Origin: Magnetococcales bacterium
GTDB lineage: Bacteria; Pseudomonadota; Magnetococcia; Magnetococcales; JADFWT01
DNA length: 63,636 bases
Assembly (NCBI GenBank): GCA_015233785.1
Contig: JADFWT010000003.1
Coordinates: forward strand, 1-63,636
Reading direction: 5' to 3'
The notes under the pieces are model-generated. The model had not been told where the DNA came from and made no database searches. It was given only the letters and a program-made list of their open reading frames with translations. Shown here one piece after another: positions 33,892 through 47,669 of the stretch (the stretch's first letter is position 1; each line of letters begins with the position of its first letter). A program made the translations under genes and the position numbers.

Positions 33892-33893
33892 AG

Positions 33894-34292
33894 ATGTCCA
33901 GTGGTGTGCAGTTACCGTCGGAGCGTTCGTTCGGCGTGGTGTTTACGATATTTTTTGCCATTGTTGGGCTCTGGCCTCTGCTGGTTGGGGGCACGGTGCG
34001 TCTTTGGGGATTGGTGTTGGCGGGGATTTTTCTGCTGCTGGCTCTGGTGAAACCGGAGGTGTTGCGGCCTCTGAATCGGCTCTGGGCCAAGTTTGGTCTG
34101 CTGCTGCATACGGTGATGAGCCCGATTCTGCTGGGGATTCTGTTTTTCGGCCTCTTTACCCCCATGGGGGTGGTGCGGCGGCTGATGGGTAAGGATGGTC
34201 TGCGGCTGCGCTTTGATGAGAAGGCCGACAGCTACTGGCAGAAGCGAGAGGATCCCGGTCCACCGCCGGAGTCCATGAAGCAGCAGTTTTAG
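33894..34292 (+). CDS. SxtJ-like small membrane protein
   Basis: 132 aa with three TM helices. It starts 2 nt after the SGNH stop. Its family and its position next to a carbamoyltransferase match the SxtJ arrangement as I recall it. Confidence 0.6.
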   Translation: MSSGVQLPSERSFGVVFTIFFAIVGLWPLLVGGTVRLWGLVLAGIFLLLALVKPEVLRPLNRLWAKFGLLLHTVMSPILLGILFFGLFTPMGVVRRLMGKDGLRLRFDEKADSYWQKREDPGPPPESMKQQF

Positions 34293-34361
34293 TGCCGGGT
34301 GCCATCCACTTTGCGGCGGTGGAAGATGGGTGGTTGCTTAAGATGAGATGGGAGGGTTGAG

Positions 34362-34511
34362 ATGTCTTTTTTTGCAGAGCTTTGGGCCTTTATGCGTCAT
34401 CGCAAGAAGTTTTGGCTGCTGCCGATTTTAATCATGATGGTGCTGTTGGGCGGGTTGATTGTCTTCTCCCAAGGTTCGGCGGTGGCACCGTTTATCTACA
34501 CGCTGTTTTAG
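34362..34511 (+). CDS. DUF5989-like 49-aa membrane peptide (not in the supplied ORF track)
   Basis: My own translation is MSFFAELWAFMRHRKKFWLLPILIMMVLLGGLIVFSQGSAVAPFIYTLF*. GGAGGG lies 5 nt upstream of the ATG, and the stop is 12 nt before the carbamoyltransferase ATG. Confidence 0.7.
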   Translation: MSFFAELWAFMRHRKKFWLLPILIMMVLLGGLIVFSQGSAVAPFIYTLF

Positions 34512-34523
34512 GGCTGGCTGGGT

Positions 34524-36362: not shown

Positions 36363-36391
36363 AAAAAGGCCGAGGGGAAAAAGGTAAGAAG

Positions 36392-37387
36392 ATGGAAAAT
36401 GCAGCACAAAGACGCATATTAATCACCACCGTCCCCTTCGGCGAAGTGGATCGCACGCCCCTGGAGTTGCTGGAAGCGGCAGGCATCGAATACCTGATCA
36501 ACCCCCTCAATCGCAAGCTTCGGGAGGAGGAGTTGGCGGAGATGGCGGGCGCGTTCGGCGTTTTGATTGCCGGCACCGAGCCCATCACCGACCGGGTCAT
36601 GGAGAACGCCCCCCATCTACAATTGATTTCCCGAGTGGGGATTGGTCTGGACAGCGTGGATCTGCTGGCGGCCAAGCGCCGGGAGATTGCCGTCTCCTAC
36701 ACCCCTGATGCCCCAGCTCCGGCCGTGGCCGAGTTGACCATCGGCCTGATGGTGTCGCTTCTGCGTCACTTCTCGCTCTCCGACCGCCGTCTCAGAGAGG
36801 GCCATTGGCACCGCTTTATGGGTCGCAGGCTCAACAAGATCACCGTGGGCGTCATCGGCGTTGGGCGCATCGGGCGTAAGGTGATTCGCCTTTTGAAACC
36901 TTTCGGTGCCAAGGTGCTGGCCAACGACCTGGCGCCCAATGAAGCGTTTCGGGACGAATATGGCTTCGAGTGGGCCGAGAAGGAACGTATCTATCGGGAG
37001 GCCGATCTGATCACCTTCCATCTGCCGCTGACCAAGGTGACCAAGCATCTGGTGCGCACGGAGCAGATGATGTTGATGAAGCCGGACGCCATTTTGATCA
37101 ACACGGCGCGGGGCGGCATTATCCATGAGCTGGATCTGGCCAAGGCGCTGGAGGAGAAGCGCATCGGCGGCGGGGCCATCGACGCCTTTGAGGAGGAGCC
37201 CTACAACGGGCCGCTCTCCGGGTTTGAGAATGCGCTGCTTACCTCCCACATGGGCTCCATGAGTGAGGATTGTCGGGCGCGTATGGAGCTGGAGGCGACC
37301 CAGGAGGCGATTCGCTTTTTGAAAGGTGAGACGTGTATTGGGACGGTGCCTCAGACTGAATACGACGTTCAGAGTCAGGGGTTGTAG
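36392..37387 (+). CDS. D-isomer-specific 2-hydroxyacid dehydrogenase (phosphoglycerate-dehydrogenase-like)
   Basis: GVIGVGRIGRKV NAD motif, with the catalytic R/E/H pattern (NTARGG...D..E...SHMG). Confidence 0.85.
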   Translation: MENAAQRRILITTVPFGEVDRTPLELLEAAGIEYLINPLNRKLREEELAEMAGAFGVLIAGTEPITDRVMENAPHLQLISRVGIGLDSVDLLAAKRREIAVSYTPDAPAPAVAELTIGLMVSLLRHFSLSDRRLREGHWHRFMGRRLNKITVGVIGVGRIGRKVIRLLKPFGAKVLANDLAPNEAFRDEYGFEWAEKERIYREADLITFHLPLTKVTKHLVRTEQMMLMKPDAILINTARGGIIHELDLAKALEEKRIGGGAIDAFEEEPYNGPLSGFENALLTSHMGSMSEDCRARMELEATQEAIRFLKGETCIGTVPQTEYDVQSQGL

Positions 37388-37397
37388 AAGGTAAGTC

Positions 37398-37478
37398 TTG
37401 GGGCGTCCAGAGGGCCTCAGCTCTTCTGGCGGGAGCAGGGCAGTGTTCCTGCCAGGGGTATGGGGACAGAGTCTCCAA
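37398..37478 (+). repeat. multi-hairpin intergenic repeat, copy A
   Basis: TTGGGGCGTCCAGAGGGCCTCAGCTCTTCTGGCGGGAGCAGGGCAG...GGGGACAGAGTCTCCAA. The first ~45 nt are nearly identical to copy B. It ends 24 nt before the ATG at 37503. Confidence 0.85.
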
Positions 37479-37502
37479 TTAAAGAGAGAGAAGGCAAACA
37501 TC

Positions 37503-38258
37503 ATGATCGTAGCTTTGATGCTGGGACGCGAAGGAAGCACCGGCTTCCCAGGAAAAAACCTGATGAAGGTGCGCGGCAGGCGCCTGATGGAGTATCCGCT
37601 ACTGGCGGCCAAAGCCTCGAAACATATCGATGCTTTCTACATCTCCACCGACTCGCCGGGCATCAAGAAGGTCGGGCGCAAGCATGGCGTTCAGATCATC
37701 GACCGCCCGGACTACCTCTGCACCAAAGAGGCGCTGGGAGATGATGCCTATGTGCATGGCTACGAGCTGATTAAAAAAGAGAATCTGGAGGAGATTGAGC
37801 TGGTGGTGCTGCTGTTTTGCAACGCCATCACCATCACCACCGAAGCCATTGATGAGGGAATTGCCGCTCTCAGAGCCGATCCAAGTCTCGATTCGGCGGT
37901 GACCGTCTCGCGCTACAATATGTGGAGTCCGCTCAGGGCGCGGAAGCTGGATGATGAAGGTCTGCTTCAGCCGTTCGTCCCCTTTGAGACCTTTGGCGAT
38001 CCCAAGACGCTCAACTGCGACCGGGACTCCCAGGGGGATGTCTTTTTTGCCGACATGGGGGTCTCCATTGTGCGGCCCCGTTGCCTGGAGGCGCTCTCCG
38101 AGGGGATGTTGCCGCAGAAGTGGATGGGGCAGCGTATCCACCCCATTCGCCAGGAGGGGGGGTTCGACATCGATTATGCTTGGCAACTGCCCGGTATTGA
38201 GTGGTGGATCGATACCCACTTCAAGAAGAATAAGAAATCCAAAAAGAAGAGATCGTAG
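37503..38258 (+). CDS. NeuA/CTP_transf_3-type cytidylyltransferase with Lys-rich C-terminal tail
   Basis: Trimmed to the ATG at 37503. It has the N-terminal nucleotide-binding motif LGREGSTGFPGKNL and ends in HFKKNKKSKKKRS. Confidence 0.8.
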   Translation: MIVALMLGREGSTGFPGKNLMKVRGRRLMEYPLLAAKASKHIDAFYISTDSPGIKKVGRKHGVQIIDRPDYLCTKEALGDDAYVHGYELIKKENLEEIELVVLLFCNAITITTEAIDEGIAALRADPSLDSAVTVSRYNMWSPLRARKLDDEGLLQPFVPFETFGDPKTLNCDRDSQGDVFFADMGVSIVRPRCLEALSEGMLPQKWMGQRIHPIRQEGGFDIDYAWQLPGIEWWIDTHFKKNKKSKKKRS

Positions 38259-38264
38259 AAGACC

Positions 38265-39440
38265 GTGGAAGAGGCCAAACAACGCTATCGAAAAGGGTTC
38301 AGCTTCGCCAACTTCTGGTCTCGGGCCCATGAAGATGTGGTGGAGGTGCAGAGCGGGCGGGCTGTGGCACTGCTTCAGGCGCAGTTGGCCACGGGCGCTG
38401 GGGATGATGCCCATCGCACCGTGTGGCAACGGGCGCTGGAGGATCTGACGCGCCCCCTGGAGGCCCCGCCTGCCGACAGGCCGAAGATTTTTGAGATCAA
38501 CCGTCTTTCGGCGGAGGAGATGACCCGGCTGGAAGATGGCCAGGTGACCCGTTATCTCTATCACCGTTTTCGCTACGATATTTTTCCCGGCGAGCGGCGA
38601 TTGGACGATGCCCCGACCTGTGTGCAGGTGGAGCCCACCTCCATCTGTAATTTTCGCTGCACTTTCTGCTATCAGGCCGACCGGAGCTTCAGTGACAAGC
38701 GTCAGGGCCACATGGGCTCCATGACGCTGGATCTTTACAAGCGGCTGGTGGATCAACTGGCTGGACGGGTGGAGTTCATCTCTCTGGCCTCTCGGGGGGA
38801 GCCGATGATTTGCAAGGCGTTTCCGGAGATGCTTGAATACAGCGCCTCAAAATTCATCGGCCTGAAGGTGAACACCAACGCCTCGCTGATGACGGAACGC
38901 ATCGCCCACGCGCTATTGTCGGGGGGGGTGAACTGGCTGGTTTTTTCGGTGGATGCGGCGGATGCTGAAACCTTCGCCCGGCTGCGGGTGAATGGCGATC
39001 TGGATGATGTGCGGCGCAAGATGGCTCTGTTTCGAGAGATTCAGGCCAAGCACTACCCTGACGTTCCCATCATCACCCGTGCTTCCGGCGTGCTGGTGGA
39101 GCAGGAGGGCCAGAAGATCGACGACATGCAGAGTGTTTGGGGGGAGCTGGTGGATCAGGTGACCTTTGTTAAATATAACCCATGGGAGAACACCTACGAA
39201 AACAGTCCCACCGAGGTAACCAGCCCCTGTTCCGACCTGTGGCGGCGCACCTTTGTCTGGCATGACGGCGTGGTCAATCCATGTGATTGTGACTATAAAT
39301 CAAACCTGAAGGTGGGCAGTGCGGCCAGGGATGATCTGCTCTCCATCTGGCGGGGGGCGGCCTATGATCGTCTTCGTGCGCAGCATCTTATGGACCAGCG
39401 ACAGGCCATGGAGCCGTGTCGTCGCTGCTATTTTTTGTAG
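38265..39440 (+). CDS. radical SAM enzyme with C-terminal SPASM/twitch-like Cys cluster
   Basis: CNFRCTFC (CxxxCxxC), with C-terminal Cys pattern SPCSDLW...NPCDCDY...EPCRRCYF. The GTG start lies 7 nt after the upstream stop. Confidence 0.85.
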   Translation: MEEAKQRYRKGFSFANFWSRAHEDVVEVQSGRAVALLQAQLATGAGDDAHRTVWQRALEDLTRPLEAPPADRPKIFEINRLSAEEMTRLEDGQVTRYLYHRFRYDIFPGERRLDDAPTCVQVEPTSICNFRCTFCYQADRSFSDKRQGHMGSMTLDLYKRLVDQLAGRVEFISLASRGEPMICKAFPEMLEYSASKFIGLKVNTNASLMTERIAHALLSGGVNWLVFSVDAADAETFARLRVNGDLDDVRRKMALFREIQAKHYPDVPIITRASGVLVEQEGQKIDDMQSVWGELVDQVTFVKYNPWENTYENSPTEVTSPCSDLWRRTFVWHDGVVNPCDCDYKSNLKVGSAARDDLLSIWRGAAYDRLRAQHLMDQRQAMEPCRRCYFL

Positions 39441-39452
39441 TGGGGGGCGGGT

Positions 39453-40196
39453 GTGAAGAGGGCGCTGTTTTTTGATTGCGATGGGGTGTTGGTGGAGTCG
39501 GGGGAGATTAAAACCCGCGCCTTTGCGCGTCTGTTTGATGCATGGCCGGATAAACGCGACGAGATTGTGGCTTATCATCTTTCTCAGGCGGGGATTTCAC
39601 GTTTTGTCAAATTTCGCCATATTCATGCCCATATTTTGGGGCTTCCGCTTTCGGATGAGGAGACGGTGCAGTTGGGTAAGGCGTTCTCCAGGTTGGTGAT
39701 GGAGGAGGTGCTGAAGGCTCCTCTGGTAGATGGGGTGGTGACGTTTCTTGAGGGCTGCCCTTCTGATGTGCGCTGTTACGTGATCTCCGGCACGCCTCAG
39801 GATGAGCTGGATGAGCTGTTGGAGAAGCGGGATCTGGCCAGATTTTTTGTGGATATCATCGGCTCGCCCACCCAGAAACCGGATGCCATACGGGCTTGGA
39901 TGGTGCGGGATGGGATCGCCGTAGATGAGGCGGTGATGATTGGCGATGGGGAGAGTGATTGGCGGGCGGCTCAGGAGACCGGCATTGACTTTGTGGCGCG
40001 GGTGACGGATGAGAATCGGGCGGTGCTAGGGGGGTGTACCTGGGCATTGCCGGATTTGAGTGGGTTGGAAGATATGCTGAACAGCATGAACCAGGGGGCA
40101 AAGCGAAGCGAGCCGGAACACAAAGGGGCAAAGCGAAGCGAGCCGGAAAAAAATAGTACAGCGAAGAAGAGACGAACAGAGGAGCAACCAGTTTGA
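39453..40196 (+). CDS. HAD-superfamily hydrolase (phosphatase) with repeat-containing charged tail
   Basis: Motif I FFDCDGVLVES and motif IV GDGESD. The C-terminal tail is GAKRSEPEHKGAKRSEPEKNSTAKKRRTEEQPV. Confidence 0.85.
   Translation: MKRALFFDCDGVLVESGEIKTRAFARLFDAWPDKRDEIVAYHLSQAGISRFVKFRHIHAHILGLPLSDEETVQLGKAFSRLVMEEVLKAPLVDGVVTFLEGCPSDVRCYVISGTPQDELDELLEKRDLARFFVDIIGSPTQKPDAIRAWMVRDGIAVDEAVMIGDGESDWRAAQETGIDFVARVTDENRAVLGGCTWALPDLSGLEDMLNSMNQGAKRSEPEHKGAKRSEPEKNSTAKKRRTEEQPV
40095..40148 (+). repeat. tandem duplication: 24-bp unit repeated with a 30-bp period at the 3' end of the HAD gene
   Basis: ggggcaaagcgaagcgagccggaa occurs at 40095-40118 and again at 40125-40148. Both copies encode GAKRSEPE. 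Confidence 0.9.
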
Positions 40197-41056
40197 AAGC
40201 CATCGTCATAGGCGGATCAGGATTCCTAGGCAGCCATGTCGCCGATGCATTGAGCGAGCGGGGTCATCAGGTCACGGTATTCGACAAGGTAGAGTCTCCC
40301 TATCTGAGAGCGGATCAGACCATGCGGCTGGGCGATCTGCTGGATGCGGTGGATGTCAACGACGCCGTACTGGGCATGGATGTGGTCTACAACTTTGCCG
40401 GTATTGCCGATCTGGACGACGCCAGCACCAAACCACTGACTACGGTCAACCTCAACATCATCGGGGCCATCAACGTCATGGAGGCGGCGGTGCAGGCGCG
40501 GGCCAAGCGGATGATCTACGCCAGCTCCATCTACGTCTACAGCCAGAAAGGTGGTTTCTACCGTTGCAGCAAGCAGGCGGCCGAGCTGTATGTGGAGGAG
40601 TATCGCCGCCGGTTTGGTCTGGATTTCACCATTTTGCGTTTCGGCACCCTCTACGGTCCCAGGGCCGACGCCCGCAACAGCATCTATCGCCTTCTTAAAC
40701 AGGCCCTGGAAGAGGGGGTGATCCGCTGTGCCGGGACTGGCGAGGAGCTGCGGGAGTATATCTTTGTTCGGGATGCGGCGGGGCTTAGCGTGGATGTTCT
40801 GGATGAAACATATGCCAATCGCCATGTGATATTAACTGGACAGAACGCCCTTCGTTATCGGGATATGGCCGCCACCATTCGGGAGATTCTCGGCGACCGG
40901 CCTGAGATCTCTTTCAGCGGCGAGCAGAGTGGCGATCACTACTCCTACACACCCTATTCGTTCATTCCCAATATTGGCAACAAGCTGGTGAGCAACGACT
41001 ACATCGACATCGGCCAGGGCCTGCTGGAGTGCCTTAAGGAGATGCATGGTGGTTGA
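40193..41056 (+). CDS. NAD-dependent epimerase/dehydratase (extended SDR)
   Basis: The TTG start overlaps the upstream TGA (TTGA), with GGAG 8 nt upstream. It has the GGSGFLGSH Rossmann motif and YxxxK (YRCSKQAAE). Confidence 0.85.
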   Translation: MKAIVIGGSGFLGSHVADALSERGHQVTVFDKVESPYLRADQTMRLGDLLDAVDVNDAVLGMDVVYNFAGIADLDDASTKPLTTVNLNIIGAINVMEAAVQARAKRMIYASSIYVYSQKGGFYRCSKQAAELYVEEYRRRFGLDFTILRFGTLYGPRADARNSIYRLLKQALEEGVIRCAGTGEELREYIFVRDAAGLSVDVLDETYANRHVILTGQNALRYRDMAATIREILGDRPEISFSGEQSGDHYSYTPYSFIPNIGNKLVSNDYIDIGQGLLECLKEMHGG

Positions 41057-41973
41057 TGGAGGTGCAGATGACGTCGCTCTATGAGGCGTTTGGCGTCGGG
41101 GTGGATCCTGGTCGCGTTGCGCCGGGTGTGGATGGGGCGGAGGATGGACCGCTGGTTTCGGTGATCATGCCGATGTTCAACGCCGCCACCTTTGTGGAGG
41201 CGTCGATTCGTTCGATTCAGGCCCAGGGGTATCGTCACTGGGAGCTTCTGGTGGTGGACAACGCCTCTACGGATGAGAGTCCGGCACGGGTGGTGCAGAT
41301 GGCCGAAGCGGATGGCCGTATCCAGCTGATTCGGCGCCAGGTGAACTCCGGCGGTCCGGCGGCTCCGCGCAACGATGGCATTCGGGGGGCCCGGGGGCGT
41401 TATATCACCTTTCTGGATGCCGACGACCTTTGGCATCCCGACAAATTGCAGAAGCAGGTCGCCCATATGGAGCTGCACTCGGCGACCTTCATGTGTTTCG
41501 GCAAGATGGTGGTGGATAGTGAGGGGGTTCTCTACGCGCACGGCCGTCAGTCGGAGCTGGGAGAGCTGGTGACGGAAGGTGCGGATCTGTTTGATAATCT
41601 TCTGCGCTACAACAATTTTATCCCGCTGCATACGGTGATGCTGCGTCGTGGCGAGTCGGTGGAAGGGCTGCTGTTTGATGAAGATCCGCGCCTGAACGCC
41701 GTAGAGGATTTTGATTTGTGGTTGCAAATCGCCAAGCGGGGAGAGAAAATTGACTTTTTGAACGAATTTTTCTCCATCTACCGGCTGCACGCGGGCAATC
41801 TATCCCACGGCATGCTAAAGGGGGTGCGGATCCAGCTTCGGCTGGCGCACAAGTGGCGGTCGGAATTGACCGCTGGGTCCAGGCTTCGATTGATGCGTGC
41901 AACCATCGCCAGACGTATAATATTGCCGCTGCTTAGGCGGCTGTTTTCGCGTTTTTTGCTGGTAGTTCGGTAA
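41056..41973 (+). CDS. family 2 glycosyltransferase
   Basis: The ATG overlaps the upstream TGA (TGATG). It has VSVIMPMFNAATFVEASIRS...VVDNASTDES...FLDADD (DxD). Confidence 0.85.
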   Translation: MEVQMTSLYEAFGVGVDPGRVAPGVDGAEDGPLVSVIMPMFNAATFVEASIRSIQAQGYRHWELLVVDNASTDESPARVVQMAEADGRIQLIRRQVNSGGPAAPRNDGIRGARGRYITFLDADDLWHPDKLQKQVAHMELHSATFMCFGKMVVDSEGVLYAHGRQSELGELVTEGADLFDNLLRYNNFIPLHTVMLRRGESVEGLLFDEDPRLNAVEDFDLWLQIAKRGEKIDFLNEFFSIYRLHAGNLSHGMLKGVRIQLRLAHKWRSELTAGSRLRLMRATIARRIILPLLRRLFSRFLLVVR

Positions 41974-42039
41974 GGCGCGGATCGCTCTACAACAGGAACA
42001 GACCGCGTCGCATAGACCGGTCGCCCACTTCGGAAATCC

Positions 42040-43011
42040 ATGACGCAACCGATGCAATCACTGCCCGAAATGTACCATACCATGCTGCGTATTCGCCGTG
42101 TGGAGGAGGCTCTTGCCGAGCGCTATCCCGATCAGGAGATGCGTTGTCCCATGCATCTTTGTACCGGCCAGGAGGCTGTGGCGGCAGGGGTGAGCATCCA
42201 CCTGCGGCAAGAGGATGTGGTGTTCAGCAACCATCGTGCCCATGGTCACTATCTGGCCAAAGGGGGTAGCCTGGATGCCATGGTAGCGGAGATCTACGGT
42301 AAGTCGGGCGGCTGTTGCGGAGGCCGTGGCGGCTCCATGCATCTGGTGGATCTGGAGGCCGGATTTCTCGGTTCGGCGCCCATTGTGGCCGGAACCGTAC
42401 CGCTGGCCGTTGGTGCGGCTTGGGCCTCCAAACTGCACGACCGGGATCAGGTTGCGGTGGTCTACTTTGGTGATGGCTGCTTTGAGGAGGGCGTGCTGCA
42501 CGAGACCATGAACTTCGCCTCCTTGAAACAACTTCCGGTGGTGTTTGTCTGCGAAAACAATGGCTATTCAGTCTATACACCGCTGGCCGAGCGGCAGCCG
42601 GATCGTCCCATTCTGGAGATCGCTCGTGCCCACAAGCTCTCTGTGGATGAGGGGGACGGCAACGATGTCCAGGATGTGGCCATACGGGCTGGAAAGGCTA
42701 TTCAGGCAGCTCGGGAGCAGTTTAAGCCGCAATTTCTAGAGCTGCACACCTACCGCTGGTTGGAGCATGTGGGGCCGTATGAGGATGACCACCTGGGGTA
42801 TCGACCCGCGGGGGAGTTGAAAAAGTGGCGCAAACGCTGCCCCATTCAGAGAACCGCCCAGGTGCTTACCGAAGAGTACGGCTGGAGTCAGGCCGACTTC
42901 GATAAGCGCGAGAAGTGGGTCGCCAAGGAGATTGAGGCAGCGTTTCAGTTCTCCAAGGAGAGCCCGCCGCCGGATAGCATCACCGCTTCTCAGTTTGTCT
43001 ACGCCGAGTAG
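42040..43011 (+). CDS. thiamine-diphosphate-dependent dehydrogenase E1 component, alpha subunit-like
   Basis: The TPP-binding region is GDGCFEEGVLHETMNFASLKQLPVVFVCENNGYS. The overall layout is that of 2-oxoacid/acetoin dehydrogenase E1-alpha. Confidence 0.85.
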   Translation: MTQPMQSLPEMYHTMLRIRRVEEALAERYPDQEMRCPMHLCTGQEAVAAGVSIHLRQEDVVFSNHRAHGHYLAKGGSLDAMVAEIYGKSGGCCGGRGGSMHLVDLEAGFLGSAPIVAGTVPLAVGAAWASKLHDRDQVAVVYFGDGCFEEGVLHETMNFASLKQLPVVFVCENNGYSVYTPLAERQPDRPILEIARAHKLSVDEGDGNDVQDVAIRAGKAIQAAREQFKPQFLELHTYRWLEHVGPYEDDHLGYRPAGELKKWRKRCPIQRTAQVLTEEYGWSQADFDKREKWVAKEIEAAFQFSKESPPPDSITASQFVYAE

Positions 43012-43064
43012 TAGGCGTGCCGACCATCTGTTCACGCATCGTTGCCGAGTAAGAAACGCAGACC

Positions 43065-44201
43065 ATGGATAGAAGAGCATCTTCAGCCGCGCCCAAGAGC
43101 GCCAACACCGCCAAGAAAAACAGGGGCGTGAAACGTCAGTTGACCTATGGCGAGGCGATTCGTGAAGGGCTCTACCAAGCCATGGAGACCGATCCCGGCG
43201 TGGTGGTGATCGGCGAAGGGGTGCCGGATCCTAAGGCGATCTTTGAGACCACCCGAGGCCTGCGGGAGAAGTTTGGCGCCGACCGGGTGTTGGATATGCC
43301 GTTGGCTGAGAACGGCATGACCGGCGTCTGCATCGGTGCGGCCATGTGCGGGGTGCGTCCGGTGATGGTGCATCAGCGCATTGACTTCGCCCTGTTGGCC
43401 ATGGACCAACTGATCAACAACGCCGCCAAGTGGCACTACCTGTTCAACGGCCAGGGGCGAGTGCCTCTGGTGGTGCGGGTGTTGGTGGGGCGCGGTTGGG
43501 GTCAGGGACCGCAACACGCCCAGAGTCTCCAGGCGCTGTTTGCCCACATTCCCGGCATCAAGGTGGTGCTTCCAACCATGGCTGGGGATGCCAAAGGGAT
43601 GCTGCTGGAGGCCATCCAGGACGACAACCCGGTGGTGATTGTCGAACATCGCTGGCTCTACAATATTCGCGGCCTGGTGCCCCAGAAGCCGAAGCGGGAG
43701 CGGCTGGATCGAGCCCGTCTGATTCAACCGGGCAAGCATGTCACCGTGGCGGCCTTCTCCTATATGGTGGTGGAGGCGCTAGCCGCCGCCAAGGTGCTGG
43801 CTGAGTATGGTGTTGAGCTGGAAGTGATCGATATGCGTTCGGCGAGGCCGCTGGATATGGAGCCGGTGCTGGATTCTCTGGTGAAAACCGGTCTGTTGAT
43901 GGTGCTGGATATTGGTTGGGCCACCTGCGGTGTTAGTGCCGAGGTCTCTACCCGGGCGGTGGAAGAGGGGTTTGAGCATCTGCGTAAGCCACCCAAGCGG
44001 GTGACACTGCCGGATCATCCGGTGCCCACCTCTCACCATCTGTCGGTGGACTACTATCCCGACGCCGAAACCATCGCGCGTGAGGCGCTGGTGTTGCTGG
44101 ATAAGCCGCTACCGGATGATGAGTCCGAGGAGGTGTTTCTGCGTCTGCATCGTGCCTTGCCCAGGGATGTGCCCAACCCCGATTTTACCGGCCCCTTTTA
44201 A
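43065..44201 (+). CDS. E1 component beta subunit-like (transketolase pyrimidine-binding and C-terminal domains)
   Basis: LTYGEAIREGLYQAMETDPGVVVIGEGV...DMPLAENGMTG. It has a basic ~24-aa N-terminal extension if ATG 43065 is used. Confidence 0.85.
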   Translation: MDRRASSAAPKSANTAKKNRGVKRQLTYGEAIREGLYQAMETDPGVVVIGEGVPDPKAIFETTRGLREKFGADRVLDMPLAENGMTGVCIGAAMCGVRPVMVHQRIDFALLAMDQLINNAAKWHYLFNGQGRVPLVVRVLVGRGWGQGPQHAQSLQALFAHIPGIKVVLPTMAGDAKGMLLEAIQDDNPVVIVEHRWLYNIRGLVPQKPKRERLDRARLIQPGKHVTVAAFSYMVVEALAAAKVLAEYGVELEVIDMRSARPLDMEPVLDSLVKTGLLMVLDIGWATCGVSAEVSTRAVEEGFEHLRKPPKRVTLPDHPVPTSHHLSVDYYPDAETIAREALVLLDKPLPDDESEEVFLRLHRALPRDVPNPDFTGPF

Positions 44202-44273
44202 ATCCCATTCGAGTCTATCGAGCGGCCAACTGCCGTCGCGCCTCAATGCAGGGGTGCCCCAACGAGGATCTTC

Positions 44274-45638
44274 ATGTCCGATAAAAAATCCACCAATCGT
44301 TTTGGCGAAAGCGCCGTCACAGCTATTCCCAAGAATGCACCGTTGGCGGATCGTCCCGGTCATAAGCTGCGCAGCTCCAGCGTCATTGTGGATCGAAAGG
44401 AGCTGGCAGCGGCGGAAGCGGCCCTGGTCGGACAGCAGGTGGAGGCGGTGAAGTTTGATGACCAGAAGGGCATCATCCGCTTTCAGGATGGCGAGGATCC
44501 CACCGAATTGGTCGCCAACCGCTTTACCGGCCCCAGCTTTCGCAATCGCAGCGAGCGGTTTCGCTTCGATGGCCACAAAATGATGCACCACCTGGATCGC
44601 ATTCGGGATTGGCAGGAGGGCACACGCTTTGCGCCGATCCATATCGACATGGGTCTCACCAAGTTTTGCAACACCGCCTGCATATACTGCTATGCGGTGA
44701 TCCAGAACATGACCAAGGGGGTGATGATTCAGCGGGAGCCGCTGCTCAATTTTATTGAGGATTGCGGGCGTCTGGGCGTGCGCTCCATCGGCTTTATCGG
44801 CGATGGTGAGCCCACGCTTAATCCGGCCATGTATGATGCCGCTGTGCTGGCCAAAAAACGTGGGGTGGATACCTCCATGGCCACCAACGGCCTGTTGATG
44901 GATATGGACCGTGCCCACGATATGCTACGGGATATGACCTTCATCCGTTTTAATTTATCGGCAGGGACGCCGGAAGGGTTCCAGCGGGTTCACCAGTCGC
45001 CGGGGCGCAATTTTGAGCTGCTGGTGGAGAAGATCCGCGAGCTGGTACGTATCAAAAAAGAGAACAACTACCCCTGCACCCTGGGGTTGCAGATGGTGCT
45101 GATCCCCGAATGCTTCGATCAGGTGATTGACGAGGCGCGTTTGGGGGCCGAACTGGGGGTGGATTACTTTGTGGTCAAGCAGTGTGCCGACTCCGAGTAC
45201 AAAGAGCTGGGCGTGGACTACAGCGACTACCACAAGATGGAGAAGGTGTTGCACGAGGCGGAGAAGTACGCCACCAAGGATTATGTGGTGCAGATTAAGT
45301 GGAACAAGATCAATGCCGCTGCCGAAACCAACCTCTACAAGCAGGGCATTCGCAAGTATGACATCTGCTACGGCACGCCGTTTCTGGCGCAGATTTCAGG
45401 CAACGGTAAGGTCTATCCCTGCGGCCCATTTTTCAATAAAGAGCGCTTCTATATTGGCGACCTGCACAGCGAGTCGTTTCACGACATGGTGATGGGGGAT
45501 CGTTACTGGGCGGTGCATGAGGATGTGGCTAAATCGGTGGATGTCCACAAGGACTGCGCCATCGGTTGCCGTCAGGACTACATCAACAAGTTTCTCTGGG
45601 ATCTGAAGAACCCGCCGGATCACATCAACTTTATTTAA
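44274..45638 (+). CDS. radical SAM enzyme with ~120-aa N-terminal extension
   Basis: CNTACIYC (CxxxCxxC) with a GDGEPTLNP SAM-binding motif. The C-terminal Cys residues (YPCGPFF...DCAIGC) suggest a possible auxiliary cluster. Confidence 0.85.
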   Translation: MSDKKSTNRFGESAVTAIPKNAPLADRPGHKLRSSSVIVDRKELAAAEAALVGQQVEAVKFDDQKGIIRFQDGEDPTELVANRFTGPSFRNRSERFRFDGHKMMHHLDRIRDWQEGTRFAPIHIDMGLTKFCNTACIYCYAVIQNMTKGVMIQREPLLNFIEDCGRLGVRSIGFIGDGEPTLNPAMYDAAVLAKKRGVDTSMATNGLLMDMDRAHDMLRDMTFIRFNLSAGTPEGFQRVHQSPGRNFELLVEKIRELVRIKKENNYPCTLGLQMVLIPECFDQVIDEARLGAELGVDYFVVKQCADSEYKELGVDYSDYHKMEKVLHEAEKYATKDYVVQIKWNKINAAAETNLYKQGIRKYDICYGTPFLAQISGNGKVYPCGPFFNKERFYIGDLHSESFHDMVMGDRYWAVHEDVAKSVDVHKDCAIGCRQDYINKFLWDLKNPPDHINFI

Positions 45639-47669
45639 TTATCCGCAGACCGATATGGTCTCTCCCTCGGCCAGTTCGCCACGTTCCAGTCGCTGGTGGA
45701 ACTGCTTGAAGGGATTGAAGTAGAGGGTGGCCAGATCTCTGTCAGCGCCCTGCGCCTTCACGGCCTGCTCAAGTTCCCGGCAGCGGTTAGGCCACGATTG
45801 CGGCGGGTCATCGCTGAGCTGAACAGCCTTTTTGAAGTAGAGCAGCGCCGCCCCCAGACTTCCTTCCATCTCCAGTGCTTTGGCAAATTCGGCGTGGCAG
45901 TGGGGGTTCCATATGTTGGTTCTCAGGGCGTGCATCAAAAAGAACATCGCGTTGCTGCGCTCTCCCACCTGAAGCTCCAGAGCCCCAAAACGATGAAAAG
46001 CCCGTATACAGGCCCAGCTCTCCATGGCTGGTCCGCAGTGTTGCTCAATGAGCTGAGAATAGTGCTGGCGAGCCGCTTCCCGGGCTTGGGGGTTTTTGGT
46101 CAGTGAGAATAGCTCGTCCAGGCGTTCGGCAGCGGCCAGTTGCAGATCGGCCTGGGGATGGGGGTTCATGGGGGGGTGCCACATGGGTACGTCGGACCGG
46201 GCGCGGCAATGGCGACATGTGAGTCGGATGCTCCAGACACTGTTGTAAAGATTCTTGTAGAGATTGCCGCCCTGACATTTGGGGCAGCGCCACTGATAGG
46301 TTAAACCCTGACCCAGAATGGGGTGGGGCACTTCGTCCATCATGAACCCCTCCACCGTGGCCGGATAGGGAAGCGTCTGACTGTAGAAGAGGATCCGTTC
46401 CCGCAGAGGGTAGAACAGCGCATCGTCCAGAGTGGACAGGTTGATGGGAATGGTGGGGTCGGCATAGGCGGCGGCAGGGTCGGTGATGCGGCCATTCTGT
46501 ACGCCAAGTTGAAACAGCTCGCTGCCTGGTAGAATATCCAATGCACTGAAATTGATGCAGTACTCCGGGTGATGCGCCCAAAAATCGAAGGTTTCAGCCA
46601 GGGTATCGAGGTTCTCCGCCGGATCGCCAATGAGAAAATTACCTTGGATGCCGATGCCCGCCTCATAGATCAACGCCAAGGCCCGCTGGAGCTGTTCCGG
46701 GGTAATTTTTTTCTTCATGCTGGCCAGAACCGGCGCGCTCATGTGCTCGATTCCAAGGCTGATGTAGACGCAGCCCGCCTCTTTGAGCACCTGCAAGGTG
46801 GTCTTATCCACCACCTTGACGTGGAGTTGGCAGAGCCAGGGCAGGCCGTAGGCTTTCATGCGCTGGCAGAATTCAATAAGGCGGCTCTTTTTAAAGGCCA
46901 AAAGCTCATCGAGCACCATGATGATATTGATTTTGTAGGTCTCGATGAGGTGGTCCAGCTCCTGAAAAAAATCATCCAGATCCCGTTCCCGATACACCTT
47001 ACCGTTGGGGTGGTAGCAGAAGGTGCAGGAGAGGGGGCAGGAGCGGCTGGCAATGATGGGTATGGCGCGGGGATCGTCTTCGGCAAAGTGAATGTAGTTG
47101 CTCTGGGGAATTTGCCGTTCCAGCAGGCGCGCCATCTGGAAGCCGTCAAAGTCTGGCCAGGGCAGGGTACTGATCTCTCGGTTGATGGGTCGTTCCGGGG
47201 TGCGCATGGGGGGGGCATCGGTGGGTTTCAGCACCAGCCCGGTGACCGCTTGTAGAGGGGTGCCGTCTTCCAGCGCCTGAACGATCTCCACGATAGCTTG
47301 CTCTCCCTCGCCGATAACACCGATATCCAGCGTCATCAGAGAGGCGGCCGTCAGCGGATCGGCACTCACAACGCCGCCGCCCACTATATTAATGATATTT
47401 GGCTTGCTCTGCTTGGCTGCTTGCAGAATCGTCTGAATGGTCTTGGCGTGGGCAGAGATGCCGCCGGTGGCGCAGATGTCCACATCCAGTGCATCGATAT
47501 GGTGGGCTATCACCTGCTCTATTGGGCCCTCTTCATGGTTGAGATTGAGGCAGTGGACTTGCTTGCCCGCCTGTTTAAGCGCTGCCGAGATGTAGAGGAT
47601 GCCGACGGCCATGTCGTAGCTGTTGTGGTTATCTTCGACAAAGCGGGGCATGACCAGAAGCGTCTTCAT
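45639..47669 (-). CDS. B12-binding-domain radical SAM enzyme fused to a CxxC...CxxC zinc ribbon and TPR-like C-terminal region
   Basis: The N-terminal cobalamin-binding-like Rossmann segment is MKTLLVMPRF...VGGGVVS. It has CPLSCTFC, then WRCPKCQG...CRHCRARS, then helical repeats (AKALEMEGSLGAALLYFKKAVQL). Confidence 0.85.
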   Translation of the reverse strand: MKTLLVMPRFVEDNHNSYDMAVGILYISAALKQAGKQVHCLNLNHEEGPIEQVIAHHIDALDVDICATGGISAHAKTIQTILQAAKQSKPNIINIVGGGVVSADPLTAASLMTLDIGVIGEGEQAIVEIVQALEDGTPLQAVTGLVLKPTDAPPMRTPERPINREISTLPWPDFDGFQMARLLERQIPQSNYIHFAEDDPRAIPIIASRSCPLSCTFCYHPNGKVYRERDLDDFFQELDHLIETYKINIIMVLDELLAFKKSRLIEFCQRMKAYGLPWLCQLHVKVVDKTTLQVLKEAGCVYISLGIEHMSAPVLASMKKKITPEQLQRALALIYEAGIGIQGNFLIGDPAENLDTLAETFDFWAHHPEYCINFSALDILPGSELFQLGVQNGRITDPAAAYADPTIPINLSTLDDALFYPLRERILFYSQTLPYPATVEGFMMDEVPHPILGQGLTYQWRCPKCQGGNLYKNLYNSVWSIRLTCRHCRARSDVPMWHPPMNPHPQADLQLAAAERLDELFSLTKNPQAREAARQHYSQLIEQHCGPAMESWACIRAFHRFGALELQVGERSNAMFFLMHALRTNIWNPHCHAEFAKALEMEGSLGAALLYFKKAVQLSDDPPQSWPNRCRELEQAVKAQGADRDLATLYFNPFKQFHQRLERGELAEGETISVCG

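What the first reader, a model, noticed from the sequence alone, without database searches (positions are those of the whole stretch)
36392..45638. Tightly packed operon that looks like a pathway for an unrecognised CMP-activated, possibly branched-chain sugar
Nine + strand genes are packed with 4-nt or 1-nt overlaps or gaps under 120 nt. In order they are a 2-hydroxyacid dehydrogenase, a NeuA-type cytidylyltransferase, a radical SAM/SPASM enzyme, a HAD phosphatase, an SDR epimerase/dehydratase, a GT2 transferase, an E1-alpha/E1-beta TPP pair and a second radical SAM enzyme.

Three things make it unusual:
- A CMP-transferase is present, but no NeuB/KdsA-type condensing synthase or aminotransferase is seen anywhere in the window, so this is not a canonical sialic, pseudaminic, legionaminic acid or Kdo route.
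- The E1 alpha/beta pair has no E2 or E3 partner nearby. E1-like pairs embedded in sugar clusters (AviB1/AviB2 of avilamycin biosynthesis) are proposed to graft a two-carbon unit from pyruvate onto a keto-sugar.
- Two different radical SAM enzymes are embedded. One is SPASM-type, and there is no adjacent small ORF that could be a peptide substrate.

Together this suggests a heavily tailored glycan building block with no described pathway that I can match.
Basis: partly seen in the sequence, partly recalled or inferred. Interest (0 to 1): 0.75.

Follow-up and report, generated by a model that had tools for sequence, protein, structure and literature searches.

The report
Uncharacterised CMP-sugar tailoring gene island
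This is a real surface-sugar gene cluster of about 17 kb that joins two widespread but unstudied enzyme sets, and it probably builds an unusual CMP-activated, carbon-extended or branched acidic sugar whose chemistry nobody has yet worked out.

Summary
**Observation.** It is confirmed. All nine + strand genes exist, are tightly packed and carry the predicted domains.

- Both radical SAM enzymes hit SPASM. Each has only four conserved C-terminal cysteines, which I read as a twitch-like single auxiliary cluster of the BtrN type.
- The cytidylyltransferase starts at 37503.
- The cluster runs from about 32845 to 49733. Upstream lie GDSL, SxtJ, DUF5989 and carbamoyltransferase genes. Downstream, on the opposite strand, lie a B12-radical SAM gene and a TPR-GT41 gene.

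**Two modules.** The block fuses two modules that occur separately elsewhere.
- **Module 1** is 2-hydroxyacid dehydrogenase, CMP-transferase, rSAM1, HAD and SDR. It recurs across many phyla, including SAR11, Prochlorococcus and Leptospira, almost always without NeuB. Elsewhere rSAM1 is followed by either a reductase or a HisC-like aminotransferase, which suggests it makes a ketone.
- **Module 2** is E1α, E1β and rSAM2 (about 70% identical across Proteobacteria). It never has E2 or E3 nearby and usually sits with heptose-nucleotide genes and large glycosyltransferases.

**Inference.** The window lacks the reductase and the aminotransferase and has module 2 instead. The E1 pair therefore probably adds a two-carbon unit to the rSAM1-made keto sugar.

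**Status.** No paper, NCBIfam model or annotated locus I could search describes either module. The product chemistry is inferred, not shown.

The parts
32845..33891 (+). GDSL/SGNH hydrolase-type protein (possible O-acyl tailoring). It is probably the first gene of the + operon.
   Evidence: Pfam Lipase_GDSL_2, with a weak AlgX SGNH hit. It is divergent from the ArsS gene, 70 nt away.
33894..34292 (+). SxtJ-like small membrane protein, a likely carbamoyltransferase accessory.
   Evidence: Pfam SxtJ, 36.1 bits against a cut-off of 24.4.
34362..34511 (+). DUF5989 protein of 49 aa (SxtK-like), a likely carbamoyltransferase accessory.
   Evidence: Pfam DUF5989, 94.8 bits.
34524..36362 (+). NodU/CmcH-type O-carbamoyltransferase.
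   Evidence: Carbam_trans_N and Carbam_trans_C. It ends 29 nt before gene 1. Its counterpart in the collinear L115 is 89% identical.
36392..37387 (+). D-2-hydroxyacid dehydrogenase, phosphoglycerate-dehydrogenase-like (module 1).
   Evidence: Pfam. The best NCBIfam hit is PGDH, 214 bits, below the 454 cut-off. The best PDB hit is 1wwk PGDH. It is present in 19 of 40 well-flanked rSAM1 loci.
37503..38258 (+). CTP_transf_3 cytidylyltransferase, NeuA/KdsB/PseF superfamily (module 1 core).
   Evidence: Pfam 42.1 bits against a cut-off of 22.6. PseF scores only 54.5 against 205.7. The P-loop and STD/RP motifs align to CMP-Neu5Ac synthetases. It lies next to rSAM1 in 76 of 85 loci at 48-69% identity (one weak 29% match aside).
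38265..39440 (+). rSAM1, a radical SAM enzyme with a twitch-like single auxiliary cluster (module 1 core).
   Evidence: Radical_SAM and SPASM. Across 72 sequences only C128/132/135 and C322/340/385/388 are invariant. BtrN is the only PDB sequence hit. Foldseek returns SuiB, DesII and BtrN.
39453..40196 (+). HAD-IA phosphatase with an intact DxDG motif (module 1).
   Evidence: Pfam HAD_2. The sequence reads FFDCDGV...GDGESD. It is present in 16 of 40 well-flanked loci.
40193..41056 (+). Extended SDR, GalE-like epimerase/reductase (module 1).
   Evidence: Pfam Epimerase. The best PDB hits are sugar-nucleotide 4-epimerase-type proteins. It is present in 35 of 40 well-flanked loci.
41053..41973 (+). 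GT2 glycosyltransferase, TuaG-like.
   Evidence: Pfam Glycos_transf_2. NCBIfam TuaG scores 145 bits, below its cut-off. It is conserved in L115 at 64% identity.
42040..43011 (+). E1 alpha-like ThDP enzyme subunit (module 2).
   Evidence: E1_dh, 207 bits. The GDG...NN ThDP motif is intact. It scores 284.7, below the PDH E1 alpha cut-off of 393.85. It lies next to rSAM2 in 20 of 27 loci.
43065..44201 (+). E1 beta-like subunit (module 2).
   Evidence: Transket_pyr and Transketolase_C. It scores 291.8, below the cut-off of 321. It is present in 22 of 27 rSAM2 loci. In L113/L114 it is fused to E1 alpha.
44274..45638 (+). rSAM2, a highly conserved radical SAM enzyme (module 2).
   Evidence: About 70% identity across more than 100 listed homologues. 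It shares the 3+4 invariant cysteine pattern with a 366-aa paralogue. The Foldseek top hit is the TDP-sugar enzyme DesII.
45639..47669 (-). B12-binding radical SAM enzyme, a likely C-methyltransferase or HpnJ/AprD4-like enzyme, convergent on the operon.
   Evidence: B12-binding and Radical_SAM. All NCBIfam hits are far below their cut-offs. Homologues at 30-38% identity sit in five module-2 loci.
47742..49733 (-). TPR plus GT41-like (GT-B) glycosyltransferase, a candidate protein glycosyltransferase.
   Evidence: TPR repeats and Glyco_transf_41. A homologue is present in the Sulfurimicrobium module-2 locus. It has the same architecture as FlmG (PMC7591256). Homology to FlmG was not tested.

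Best explanation
The region is the core of a surface-glycan (probably protein or LPS glycan) precursor island of about 17 kb. It is made of two mobile modules.

**Module 1 (36392-41056)** makes a CMP-activated acidic keto-sugar without a NeuB/KdsA condensing synthase. The route below is inferred.
1. The PGDH-like 2-hydroxyacid dehydrogenase oxidises the 2-OH of a phosphorylated sugar acid to a 2-keto acid. 6-Phosphogluconate is the favoured substrate; a 3-phosphoglycerate-derived unit is the alternative.
2. The HAD phosphatase removes the terminal phosphate. This parallels KdsC in the Kdo route and the equivalent phosphatase in the sialic acid route (established pathway knowledge).
3. The CTP_transf_3 enzyme attaches CMP.
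4. rSAM1, a twitch-type enzyme like BtrN, oxidises a ring or side-chain alcohol to a ketone. The GalE-like SDR epimerises or reduces.

In nearly all other genomes that ketone is then reduced (adh_short) or transaminated (HisC-like).

**Module 2** takes that place in the window. The E1 alpha/beta ThDP enzyme decarboxylates pyruvate and adds the two-carbon unit to the keto sugar, following AviB1/AviB2 logic. rSAM2 (DesII-like) and the B12-radical SAM enzyme then carry out further radical tailoring, such as deoxygenation, rearrangement, ring closure or C-methylation.

**Finishing steps.** The carbamoyltransferase trio and the GDSL protein add O-substituents. GT2 and/or the TPR-GT41 protein transfer sugars to the acceptor.

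**Shown:** the gene content, the modular conservation, the reductase-or-aminotransferase alternation, and the absence of NeuB, E2 and E3.

**Inferred:** every substrate and product.
For: - **Domains.** All predicted domains are confirmed.
- **Core pair.** The rSAM1 and cytidylyltransferase genes are adjacent in 76 of 85 loci from many phyla.
- **Well-flanked loci (40).** SDR is in 35, adh_short in 24, HisC-like aminotransferase in 15, both in 2, neither in 3, and NeuB in only 4. The reductase or aminotransferase usually lies right beside rSAM1.
- **BtrN link.** BtrN is the only PDB sequence hit of rSAM1. Its four-cysteine pattern is invariant.
- **Precursor clue.** A true 6-phosphogluconolactonase paralogue (143.5 bits against a cut-off of 124.45) lies in 14 of 85 loci, usually close to the dehydrogenase, SDR or HAD genes.
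- **Window gap.** The window has no adh_short, HisC, DegT or NeuB homologue in the cluster.
- **E1-rSAM2 triad.** E1a-E1b-rSAM2 is conserved in 20-22 of 27 loci. It always sits among sugar-nucleotide and glycosyltransferase genes and once beside flagellin. None of the loci with annotated genes has E2 or E3. In L113/L114 the E1 subunits are fused.
- **E1 state.** The E1 ThDP motif is intact, but the scores are below the PDH cut-offs.
- **rSAM2 fold.** The closest fold is the TDP-sugar enzyme DesII.
- **Composite order.** It is conserved in L115 at 64-90% identity.
- **Precedent.** E1-like pairs are proposed to install C-acetyl branches from pyruvate (PMC4753412).
- **Orphan sugars.** Unassigned CMP-linked alpha-keto acids with extended carbon backbones exist in Magnetospirillum gryphiswaldense (bioRxiv 10.64898/2026.04.20.719630).
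Against: - No substrate or product is known for any enzyme of either module.
- The 2-hydroxyacid dehydrogenase and HAD genes are each absent from about half of the rSAM1 loci, so they may supply a side group rather than the backbone.
- The dehydrogenase resembles phosphoglycerate dehydrogenase (206 bits) more than 2-ketogluconate reductase (128 bits).
- Module 2 is normally attached to heptose-nucleotide genes, never to module 1, in the 27 loci sampled. It might therefore act on a different sugar here.
- As far as I know, GT2 enzymes are not known to use CMP-sugars (general knowledge, not tested here).
- Relatedness of the E1 pair to AviB1/AviB2 was not tested.
- The structure searches give only generic radical SAM matches (TM about 0.45-0.55).
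Confidence: 0.5

Rival explanations
1. There are two separate pathways lying side by side. Module 1 makes one CMP-sugar. The E1 alpha/beta, rSAM2 and B12-radical SAM enzymes tailor a different nucleotide sugar, for example ADP- or GDP-heptose supplied by housekeeping LPS genes. Both sugars end up in the same glycan.
For: - In 16-18 of the 27 rSAM2 loci, the E1/rSAM2 triad sits with its own GmhA-like, HldE-like and GalE-like genes and a 366-aa rSAM paralogue.
- None of those loci has module 1.
- The GT2 gene lies between the two modules.
Against: - The window lacks all four dedicated heptose-side genes, including the 366-aa paralogue.
- It also lacks the reductase or aminotransferase that follows rSAM1 in 37 of 40 loci.
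- The fusion order is kept in L115.
- Some triad loci (L086, L113/L114) also lack heptose genes.
Confidence: 0.27
2. The E1 pair supplies an acyl or ketol donor rather than a C-branch. Acting like PDH, acetoin dehydrogenase or QncN, it would generate acetyl, glycolyl or a similar two-carbon acyl group that is then placed on a sugar hydroxyl or amine.
For: - In L034 a fused E1ab lies next to an E2-like protein with lipoyl and 2-oxoacid_dh domains.
- In L039 a fused E1ab follows a 95-aa ACP-like protein, near a module 1 cassette.
- E1/E2/ACP systems that deliver two-carbon units to natural products are known (my own recollection of the quinocarcin QncN/L/M work, not checked here).
Against: - No E2, lipoyl or ACP gene is in the window or in L086-L088, L113/L114 or L116.
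- The gaps around the E1 genes (53-72 nt) leave no room for a carrier gene.
- The fused E1ab proteins of L034 and L039 are only 28-36% identical to the window pair.
Confidence: 0.1
3. The E1 pair is an ordinary pyruvate, acetoin or branched-chain 2-oxoacid dehydrogenase E1 that merely happens to lie here, with its E2 and E3 encoded elsewhere.
For: - The best family and structure hits are PDH E1 alpha/beta.
- An E3-like FAD disulfide oxidoreductase lies 13 kb upstream, at 27290-29428.
Against: - Both subunits score below NCBI's PDH cut-offs (284.7 against 393.85; 291.8 against 321).
- The pair is syntenic with rSAM2 and sugar genes in 20-22 loci, and none of the loci with annotated genes carries E2.
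- The upstream oxidoreductase is fused to a VTT membrane domain. It fits the PRK06370 subfamily better than lipoamide dehydrogenase (383 bits, below the 408.8 cut-off).
Confidence: 0.03
4. The radical SAM/SPASM enzymes mature a peptide or a cofactor, or the cluster makes a CMP-linked phosphonate or similar small molecule in a fosfomycin-like way.
For: - There are generic SPASM hits to RiPP maturases.
- The B12-radical SAM enzyme has its best, weak hit to PhpK-type P-methyltransferases.
- Fosfomycin biosynthesis uses CMP activation together with a B12-radical SAM enzyme (PMC9088020).
Against: - No precursor-like small ORF recurs among the gene families shared by the related loci, and no RRE/PqqD domain was reported for either radical SAM protein or among the annotated neighbours of the rSAM1/rSAM2 loci.
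- Both rSAM families have four, not seven, conserved auxiliary cysteines.
- No PEP mutase was found in the Pfam scans of the window.
- All neighbours are sugar genes.
Confidence: 0.03

Closest known systems
CMP-Kdo, CMP-sialic, CMP-pseudaminic and CMP-legionaminic acid pathways (KdsA/NeuB synthase, HAD phosphatase, CTP_transf_3 synthetase)
   Same: - It has a CTP_transf_3 cytidylyltransferase with a NeuA-like CTP-binding N-terminus.
- It has a HAD phosphatase.
- It sits in glycan islands, sometimes next to true NeuB/Leg/Pse genes.
   Different: - There is no PEP-condensing synthase in the window or in 36 of 40 related loci.
- The cytidylyltransferase is far below the PseF and KdsB cut-offs, and its sugar-binding half does not align.
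- The phosphatase is HAD-IA, not, as I recall, the KdsC-type HAD-IIIA.
- A radical SAM enzyme is the obligate partner of the cytidylyltransferase.
BtrN with BtrS of butirosin/2-deoxystreptamine biosynthesis (radical SAM alcohol dehydrogenase followed by an aminotransferase)
   Same: - rSAM1 has the radical SAM motif plus one four-cysteine auxiliary cluster.
- BtrN is its only PDB sequence hit.
- In 15 of 40 well-flanked loci a PLP aminotransferase lies within 7 kb, in many of them directly beside rSAM1.
   Different: - Identity to BtrN is low and covers only the radical SAM core.
- rSAM1 has a conserved N-terminal domain of about 110 aa that BtrN lacks.
- The partner is HisC-like, not DegT-like.
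- The substrate is presumably a sugar acid or a CMP-sugar, not an aminocyclitol.
AviB1/AviB2 (avilamycin) and Pau11/Pau12 (paulomycin): E1 alpha/beta-like pairs proposed to attach a C-4 acetyl branch from pyruvate to a keto sugar
   Same: - It is a split E1 alpha/beta with an intact ThDP motif.
- It has no E2 or E3 partner.
- It is embedded among sugar-tailoring genes.
   Different: - It comes from Gram-negative glycan islands, not actinomycete antibiotic clusters.
- It is always coupled to a highly conserved radical SAM enzyme (rSAM2).
- The keto sugar would come from a radical SAM enzyme rather than a 4,6-dehydratase.
- The sequence relationship to AviB1/AviB2 is untested.
DesII (TDP-4-amino-4,6-dideoxyglucose deaminase/dehydrogenase)
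   Same: It is the top structural match of rSAM2 and a match of rSAM1. It is a radical SAM enzyme that acts on a nucleotide sugar.
   Different: - Identity is about 14-16% and TM is about 0.5.
- rSAM2 has four conserved C-terminal cysteines that could hold an auxiliary cluster.
- rSAM2 has a conserved N-terminal extension of about 100 aa.
FlmG-type flagellin glycosyltransferases (TPR domain plus GT-B domain, CMP-pseudaminic acid donor)
   Same: The 663-aa protein at 47742-49733 has N-terminal TPR repeats and a C-terminal GT-B (GT41-like) domain, and it lies next to a CMP-sugar cassette.
   Different: - Homology to FlmG was not tested.
- There is no flagellin gene in the window.

Membership tests
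Canonical CMP-ulosonic acid (Kdo/NulO) pathway | A PEP-condensing synthase (NeuB or KdsA family). | tested here: not met
   There is no NeuB homologue in the window by tblastn. No NeuB or DAHP_synth_1 Pfam hit appears on any scanned ORF. NeuB is present in only 4 of 40 well-flanked related loci.
Canonical CMP-ulosonic acid (Kdo/NulO) pathway | A CTP_transf_3 cytidylyltransferase. | tested here: met
   PF02348 scores 42.1 bits against a cut-off of 22.6. The GRxGSxGxPGKN, STD and RP motifs align with CMP-Neu5Ac synthetases. It is nevertheless below the PseF (54.5 against 205.7) and KdsB equivalog cut-offs.
Canonical CMP-ulosonic acid (Kdo/NulO) pathway | A dedicated sugar-acid phosphate phosphatase of the HAD superfamily. 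| tested here: inconclusive
   A HAD gene with an intact DxD motif is present. It is of the IA type (phosphoglycolate-phosphatase-like). It is found in only 16 of 40 related loci.
AviB1/AviB2-type sugar C-branching E1 pairs | E1 alpha and E1 beta with an intact ThDP-binding motif. | tested here: met
   The E1_dh, Transket_pyr and Transketolase_C domains are present. The GDG...NN motif is kept.
AviB1/AviB2-type sugar C-branching E1 pairs | No cognate E2 or E3, and a location among sugar-nucleotide tailoring genes. | tested here: met
   The window scans show no E2 or lipoyl domain. The upstream FAD oxidoreductase is not a bona fide E3. The same holds in L086-L088, L113/L114 and L116.
AviB1/AviB2-type sugar C-branching E1 pairs | Phylogenetic grouping with AviB1/AviB2 or Pau11/Pau12. 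| not testable with these tools
Only the precedent was read (PMC4753412).
2-Oxoacid dehydrogenase complex E1 (PDH, BCKDH, acetoin dehydrogenase) | Scores above the curated equivalog thresholds, and adjacent E2 and E3 genes. | tested here: not met
   E1 alpha scores 284.7 against 393.85. E1 beta scores 291.8 against 321. There is no E2 or E3 in the cluster.
SPASM peptide maturases (RiPP radical SAM enzymes) | A seven-cysteine SPASM motif holding two auxiliary clusters, and a co-encoded precursor peptide or RRE. | tested here: not met
   Only four C-terminal cysteines are invariant in rSAM1 (72 sequences). Only four are shared by rSAM2 and its paralogue. No conserved small ORF appears among the recurrent neighbour families.
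BtrN-like twitch radical SAM dehydrogenases | A CX3CX2C motif plus one auxiliary [4Fe-4S] cluster on four cysteines. | tested here: met
   C128/132/135 and C322-x17-C340-x44-C385-x2-C388 are invariant. The match of this spacing to BtrN is from memory, not checked.
BtrN-like twitch radical SAM dehydrogenases | Two-electron oxidation of a secondary alcohol to a ketone. | not testable with these tools
   Support is indirect only. A reductase or an aminotransferase accompanies rSAM1 in 37 of 40 loci.

The most novel reading that the evidence does not exclude
Module 1 is a NeuB/KdsA-independent route to CMP-activated ulosonic acids. In this route a 2-hydroxyacid dehydrogenase creates the alpha-keto acid by oxidising an aldonate phosphate, and a twitch radical SAM enzyme installs a second carbonyl. 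In this window the E1 alpha/beta-rSAM2 module then extends or branches the carbon skeleton. The product would be a higher-carbon or C-branched CMP-keto-acid sugar. That is the kind of unassigned CMP-linked alpha-keto acid with an extended backbone just reported in Magnetospirillum. It may be common on SAR11 and Prochlorococcus surfaces.
Probability: 0.2. Interest if true: 0.85.

Novelty: new variant of a known kind. Interest (0 to 1): 0.62.

Why it matters
**New enzymology.** If the reading is right, the cluster encodes new sugar chemistry of three kinds.
- A way to make and CMP-activate an acidic keto-sugar without the universal PEP-condensing synthases.
- A radical SAM/cytidylyltransferase pair that is conserved across many phyla, including the most abundant marine bacteria (SAR11 and Prochlorococcus). 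Cell-surface glycans in those bacteria plausibly affect phage and grazer recognition.
- A ThDP E1 pair locked to a radical SAM enzyme that is about 70% identical across proteobacterial classes, which implies a demanding and so far unknown reaction.

**Orphan sugars.** The cluster offers candidate genes for sugars that have no assigned pathway.
- The extended-backbone CMP-keto acids seen by mass spectrometry in Magnetospirillum.
- Possibly higher-carbon LPS sugars such as caryose, whose origin is unknown (PMC9092360).

**Testability.** Cultured carriers exist for both modules, so the question can be tested directly.

Tried and rejected
- **Literature.** Nine full-text searches combined radical SAM, cytidylyltransferase, 2-hydroxyacid or phosphoglycerate dehydrogenase, ulosonic or nonulosonic acid, heptose, E1 and flagellin glycosylation. 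None found a description of either module. The hits gave only precedents (AviB/Pau) and context (SugarBase preprint).
- **NCBIfam.** No family reaches its cut-off for any of the nine proteins.
- **E. coli genomes.** There is no DNA match for the cytidylyltransferase-rSAM1 pair, so no characterised E. coli O-antigen carries it.
- **Plasmid collection.**
  - rSAM1 gave only distant hits (at most 26% identity).
  - rSAM2-type hits led to the Azospirillum oryzae and Solidesulfovibrio plasmid loci. These are useful as cultured carriers but have no known chemistry.
- **Structure.** AlphaFold plus Foldseek for both radical SAM proteins gave generic SPASM/twitch matches (TM about 0.45-0.55). Sugar- and nucleotide-acting enzymes are prominent among them, but the result is not decisive.
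- **Promoter and terminator scan.** Counts were close to those of shuffled sequence (promoters 9 vs 7.9; terminators 22 vs 15.6 ± 4.4) and gave no clear operon boundary.
- **Serine-pathway reading** (PGDH plus HisC-like aminotransferase plus HAD acting as SerA/C/B). I consider it less likely. The dehydrogenase and HAD genes occur equally in reductase-type loci, and the aminotransferase usually lies next to or near rSAM1.
- **Phosphonate reading.** Rejected, because there is no PEP mutase.
- **Upstream FAD oxidoreductase as E3.** Rejected.
- **Taxonomy.** The organism was not determined. The best cluster-protein hits are Magnetococcales MAGs at 56-75% identity, which is not reliable for mobile genes.

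Full report
**1. The observation**

Each carries the predicted Pfam domain above the gathering threshold. In order they are:
- 2-Hacid_dh
- CTP_transf_3
- Radical_SAM + SPASM
- HAD
- Epimerase (SDR)
- GT2
- E1_dh
- Transket_pyr + Transketolase_C
- Radical_SAM + SPASM

The spacing is tight. There are 4-nt or 1-nt overlaps at the HAD/SDR and SDR/GT2 junctions. The other gaps are 6-72 nt, plus about 115 nt before the cytidylyltransferase.

Three corrections are needed.
- Both radical SAM proteins hit SPASM.
- The cytidylyltransferase most likely begins at ATG 37503, behind a strong ribosome-binding site. Homologues are about 247 aa and alignments start there.
- The unit is larger than nine genes.
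  - Upstream on the same strand lie a GDSL/SGNH protein, an SxtJ-like protein, a 49-aa DUF5989 protein and a NodU/CmcH-type carbamoyltransferase. The last ends 29 nt before gene 1.
  - Downstream, a B12-binding radical SAM gene and a TPR-GT41 glycosyltransferase gene converge on the operon. The stop codons of rSAM2 and the B12 enzyme abut at 45638/45639.

No NCBIfam model reaches its cut-off for any of the nine proteins.

**2. The window lacks the expected partners**

- tblastn with representatives of NeuB, DegT, HisC-like aminotransferase, adh_short, 6-phosphogluconolactonase and others finds nothing in the cluster.
- Pfam scans of the large ORFs of the window show no KdsA/NeuB, no lipoyl or 2-oxoacid_dh (E2) domain and no PEP mutase.
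- An E3-like protein lies at 27290-29428. It is fused to a VTT membrane domain. It fits a generic FAD-oxidoreductase subfamily better than lipoamide dehydrogenase, for which it scores below the cut-off.

**3. Module 1**

*Family size and spread.* rSAM1 belongs to a compact family.
- More than 1,400 proteins match in the 90% database. All of the top 120 are about 46-56% identical, apart from the query itself and one 76% relative, and none carries a functional name.
- There are 93 representative clusters at E ≤ 1e-30 in the 50% library.
- A scan of species genomes returned 80 loci from many phyla. They include Pelagibacteraceae, Prochlorococcus, saprophytic Leptospira, Omnitrophota, Nitrospinota, Magnetovibrio, Chlorobium, Pararhodospirillum, Gallionella, Acidobacteria and Actinobacteria.

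*Neighbours in all 85 loci.* The CTP_transf_3 gene accompanies rSAM1 in 76 loci, at 48-69% identity apart from one weak 29% match. The SDR is in 59, the 2-hydroxyacid dehydrogenase in 41 and the HAD in 35. An E1 pair appears in only 2, and rSAM2 in none.

*Neighbours in the 40 loci with at least 7 kb on both sides.*

| Gene | Loci |
|---|---|
| Cytidylyltransferase | 35 |
| SDR | 35 |
| adh_short reductase | 24 |
| HisC-like aminotransferase | 15 |
| Both reductase and aminotransferase | 2 |
| Neither | 3 |
| NeuB | 4 |

The reductase or the aminotransferase usually lies directly beside rSAM1.

*Interpretation.* This alternation is the strongest functional clue. It is what one expects if rSAM1 makes a ketone that is then either reduced or transaminated. 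BtrN, followed by an aminotransferase, does this in 2-deoxystreptamine biosynthesis (established knowledge).
- BtrN is the only PDB sequence hit of rSAM1.
- Across 72 family members only seven cysteines are invariant. Three form the radical SAM motif and four are C-terminal (C322, C340, C385, C388).
- The protein therefore looks like a twitch-type enzyme with one auxiliary cluster, not a seven-cysteine peptide maturase.
- The AlphaFold model (pLDDT 79) matches SuiB, DesII, BtrN, anSME, BlsE and viperin at TM about 0.45. That is consistent with the reading but not decisive.

**4. Where the sugar comes from (inferred)**

- The cytidylyltransferase keeps the CTP-binding motifs of CMP-Neu5Ac synthetases. 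Its C-terminal, sugar-binding half does not align with them.
- Members of this family that I know of activate 2-ulosonic acids.
- A PGDH-like 2-hydroxyacid dehydrogenase and a HAD phosphatase are frequent in the cassette.
- A true 6-phosphogluconolactonase paralogue, above its NCBIfam cut-off, lies in 14 of 85 loci, usually close to the dehydrogenase, SDR or HAD genes.

I therefore favour a route that runs from 6-phosphogluconate (or another aldonate phosphate) by oxidation at C-2 to a 2-keto acid, then dephosphorylation, then CMP activation. It parallels the Kdo-8-P → Kdo → CMP-Kdo sequence, with a dehydrogenase in place of the condensing synthase.

This is weakly supported. The dehydrogenase resembles phosphoglycerate dehydrogenase more than 2-ketogluconate reductase. 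The dehydrogenase and the HAD are each absent from about half of the loci.

**5. Module 2**

- rSAM2 is about 70% identical across more than 100 listed homologues. These come from Gamma- and Betaproteobacteria, Magnetococcales and Nitrospinota.
- In 27 loci, E1 alpha occurs in 20 and E1 beta in 22, in most of them in the order E1a-E1b-rSAM2; loci lacking them are mostly short contigs or contigs that end beside rSAM2.
- The usual arrangement is: 366-aa rSAM, GalE-like SDR, GmhA-like isomerase, HldE-like kinase/nucleotidyltransferase, E1a, E1b, rSAM2, then a very large glycosyltransferase.
- The 366-aa rSAM is a paralogue of rSAM2 (28% identity over its full length) and is not related to rSAM1 beyond the core.
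- Other variants exist.
  - In Sulfurimicrobium lacus the module lies a few genes from a flagellin gene.
  - In L113/L114 the E1 subunits are fused into one 689-aa protein that is 53-57% identical to the window pair.
  - An Azospirillum oryzae plasmid carries a variant with two DegT aminotransferases and a nearby carbamoyltransferase.
- None of the loci whose genes were annotated has E2 or E3.
- The window's E1 alpha keeps the ThDP motif. Both subunits score below NCBI's PDH thresholds.
- The top structural match of rSAM2 is the TDP-sugar enzyme DesII (model pLDDT 66).
- The B12-radical SAM and TPR-GT41 genes of the window have counterparts in some module-2 loci.

**6. The fusion**

None of the 27 module-2 loci has module 1. 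Only the window and its relative L115 join module 1 to the split E1 pair. L115 is collinear over its whole 7.3 kb at 64-90% identity.

The window lacks the heptose genes and the 366-aa rSAM of module 2. It also lacks the reductase or aminotransferase of module 1. The simplest reading is that the modules complement each other: rSAM1 supplies the keto sugar, and E1 alpha/beta adds a pyruvate-derived two-carbon unit to it. This is the role proposed for AviB1/AviB2 and Pau11/Pau12 (PMC4753412). rSAM2 and the B12 enzyme would then tailor the product further.

Two other rSAM1 loci carry distantly related fused E1ab genes. One lies next to an E2-like protein and the other next to an ACP-like protein. 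This keeps an acyl-donor role alive as a rival.

**7. Rivals**

- The main rival (about 0.27) is that the two modules act on different sugars of one glycan, with module 2 using heptose nucleotides from housekeeping genes.
- An acyl-donor role for E1 is rated about 0.1.
- A bona fide PDH/acetoin E1 is unlikely (about 0.03).
- A RiPP or phosphonate reading is unlikely (about 0.03).

**8. Comparison with known systems, and novelty**

The locus works like a nucleotide-sugar tailoring pathway.
- It fails the defining test of the Kdo/NulO routes, because it has no condensing synthase.
- It fails the tests for 2-oxoacid dehydrogenase complexes and for SPASM peptide maturases.
- It meets the architectural tests for BtrN-like twitch enzymes and for AviB-type E1 pairs. 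Activity and phylogeny remain untested.

I found no description of either module in nine literature searches, in NCBIfam, in E. coli genomes or in annotated plasmids.

Two papers give context.
- A 2026 preprint reports unassigned CMP-linked alpha-keto acids with an extended carbon backbone in Magnetospirillum gryphiswaldense, with no genes proposed.
- A 2022 review states that the origin of the carbocyclic nonose caryose is unknown.

These are leads, not evidence.

I rate the finding a new variant of a known kind, a glycan-precursor pathway. Both conserved enzyme pairs deserve biochemical study.

Noticed in passing
window 31525-32775 (-), with 29451-30413 (-) and 27290-29428 (-): - The gene at 31525-32775 is an ArsS-type arsenosugar radical SAM gene, above its NCBIfam cut-off (407.7 against 300), with a 113-aa N-terminal extension. 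It is divergent from the glycan operon.
- On the same strand lie a DUF547 protein and a VTT/DedA-fused FAD disulfide oxidoreductase.
- These may form a separate conserved unit.
   Followed up: partly
window 33894-36362 (+): An SxtJ-like protein, a 49-aa DUF5989 protein and a NodU/CmcH-type carbamoyltransferase form a trio. As I recall, this resembles the SxtI/J/K carbamoylation set of saxitoxin clusters. Here it sits at the head of a glycan operon.
   Followed up: partly
window 45638/45639: The stop codons of rSAM2 (+) and the B12-radical SAM gene (-) are directly adjacent. There is no spacer and no terminator between them.
   Followed up: no
window 47742-53219 (-): The TPR-GT41 gene begins 21 nt after glmS, which follows glmU and the atp operon. 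The glycosyltransferase and the B12-radical SAM gene may be read through from housekeeping genes.
   Followed up: no
L087 6434-7954; also L088 and L116: The HldE-like protein of module 2 has its nucleotidyltransferase domain at the N-terminus and its kinase domain at the C-terminus. As I recall, E. coli HldE has the opposite order. Both this protein and the GmhA-like protein score below their equivalog cut-offs.
   Followed up: partly
L034 327-3388; L039 18364-20627; L113 5821-7890: Fused E1 alpha-beta proteins of 645-689 aa occur in glycan islands. One is followed by an E2-like lipoyl/acyltransferase protein. One is preceded by a 95-aa ACP-like protein. One lies beside rSAM2.
   Followed up: partly
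rSAM1 loci L003-L085: Several gene families recur beside the CMP cassette.
- Three families of about 600 aa have no Pfam domain. Two of them match NCBIfam models named after Leptospira LIC loci (TIGR04331 'LIC12162 family transferase', above its cut-off, and TIGR04326 'surface carbohydrate biosynthesis protein', a weak hit far below it). They may be the transferases for the CMP-sugar.
- FkbM methyltransferases occur in 27 loci.
- B12-radical SAM genes occur in 26 loci.
- AP_endonuc_2 TIM-barrel proteins occur in 14 loci.
   Followed up: partly
window 878-2473 (+), 2575-3585 (-), 12323-13441 (-): Three other genes stand out: a bacterial collagen-triple-helix repeat protein, a Sel1-repeat protein and a small RelA_SpoT-domain protein.
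   Followed up: no
L116 (Azospirillum oryzae plasmid NZ_CP054615.1) 19533-24600: Lasso-peptide-type genes lie just beyond the glycan genes on the plasmid. They comprise a PqqD-family protein, a B2 protein and an asparagine synthetase-like protein.
   Followed up: no
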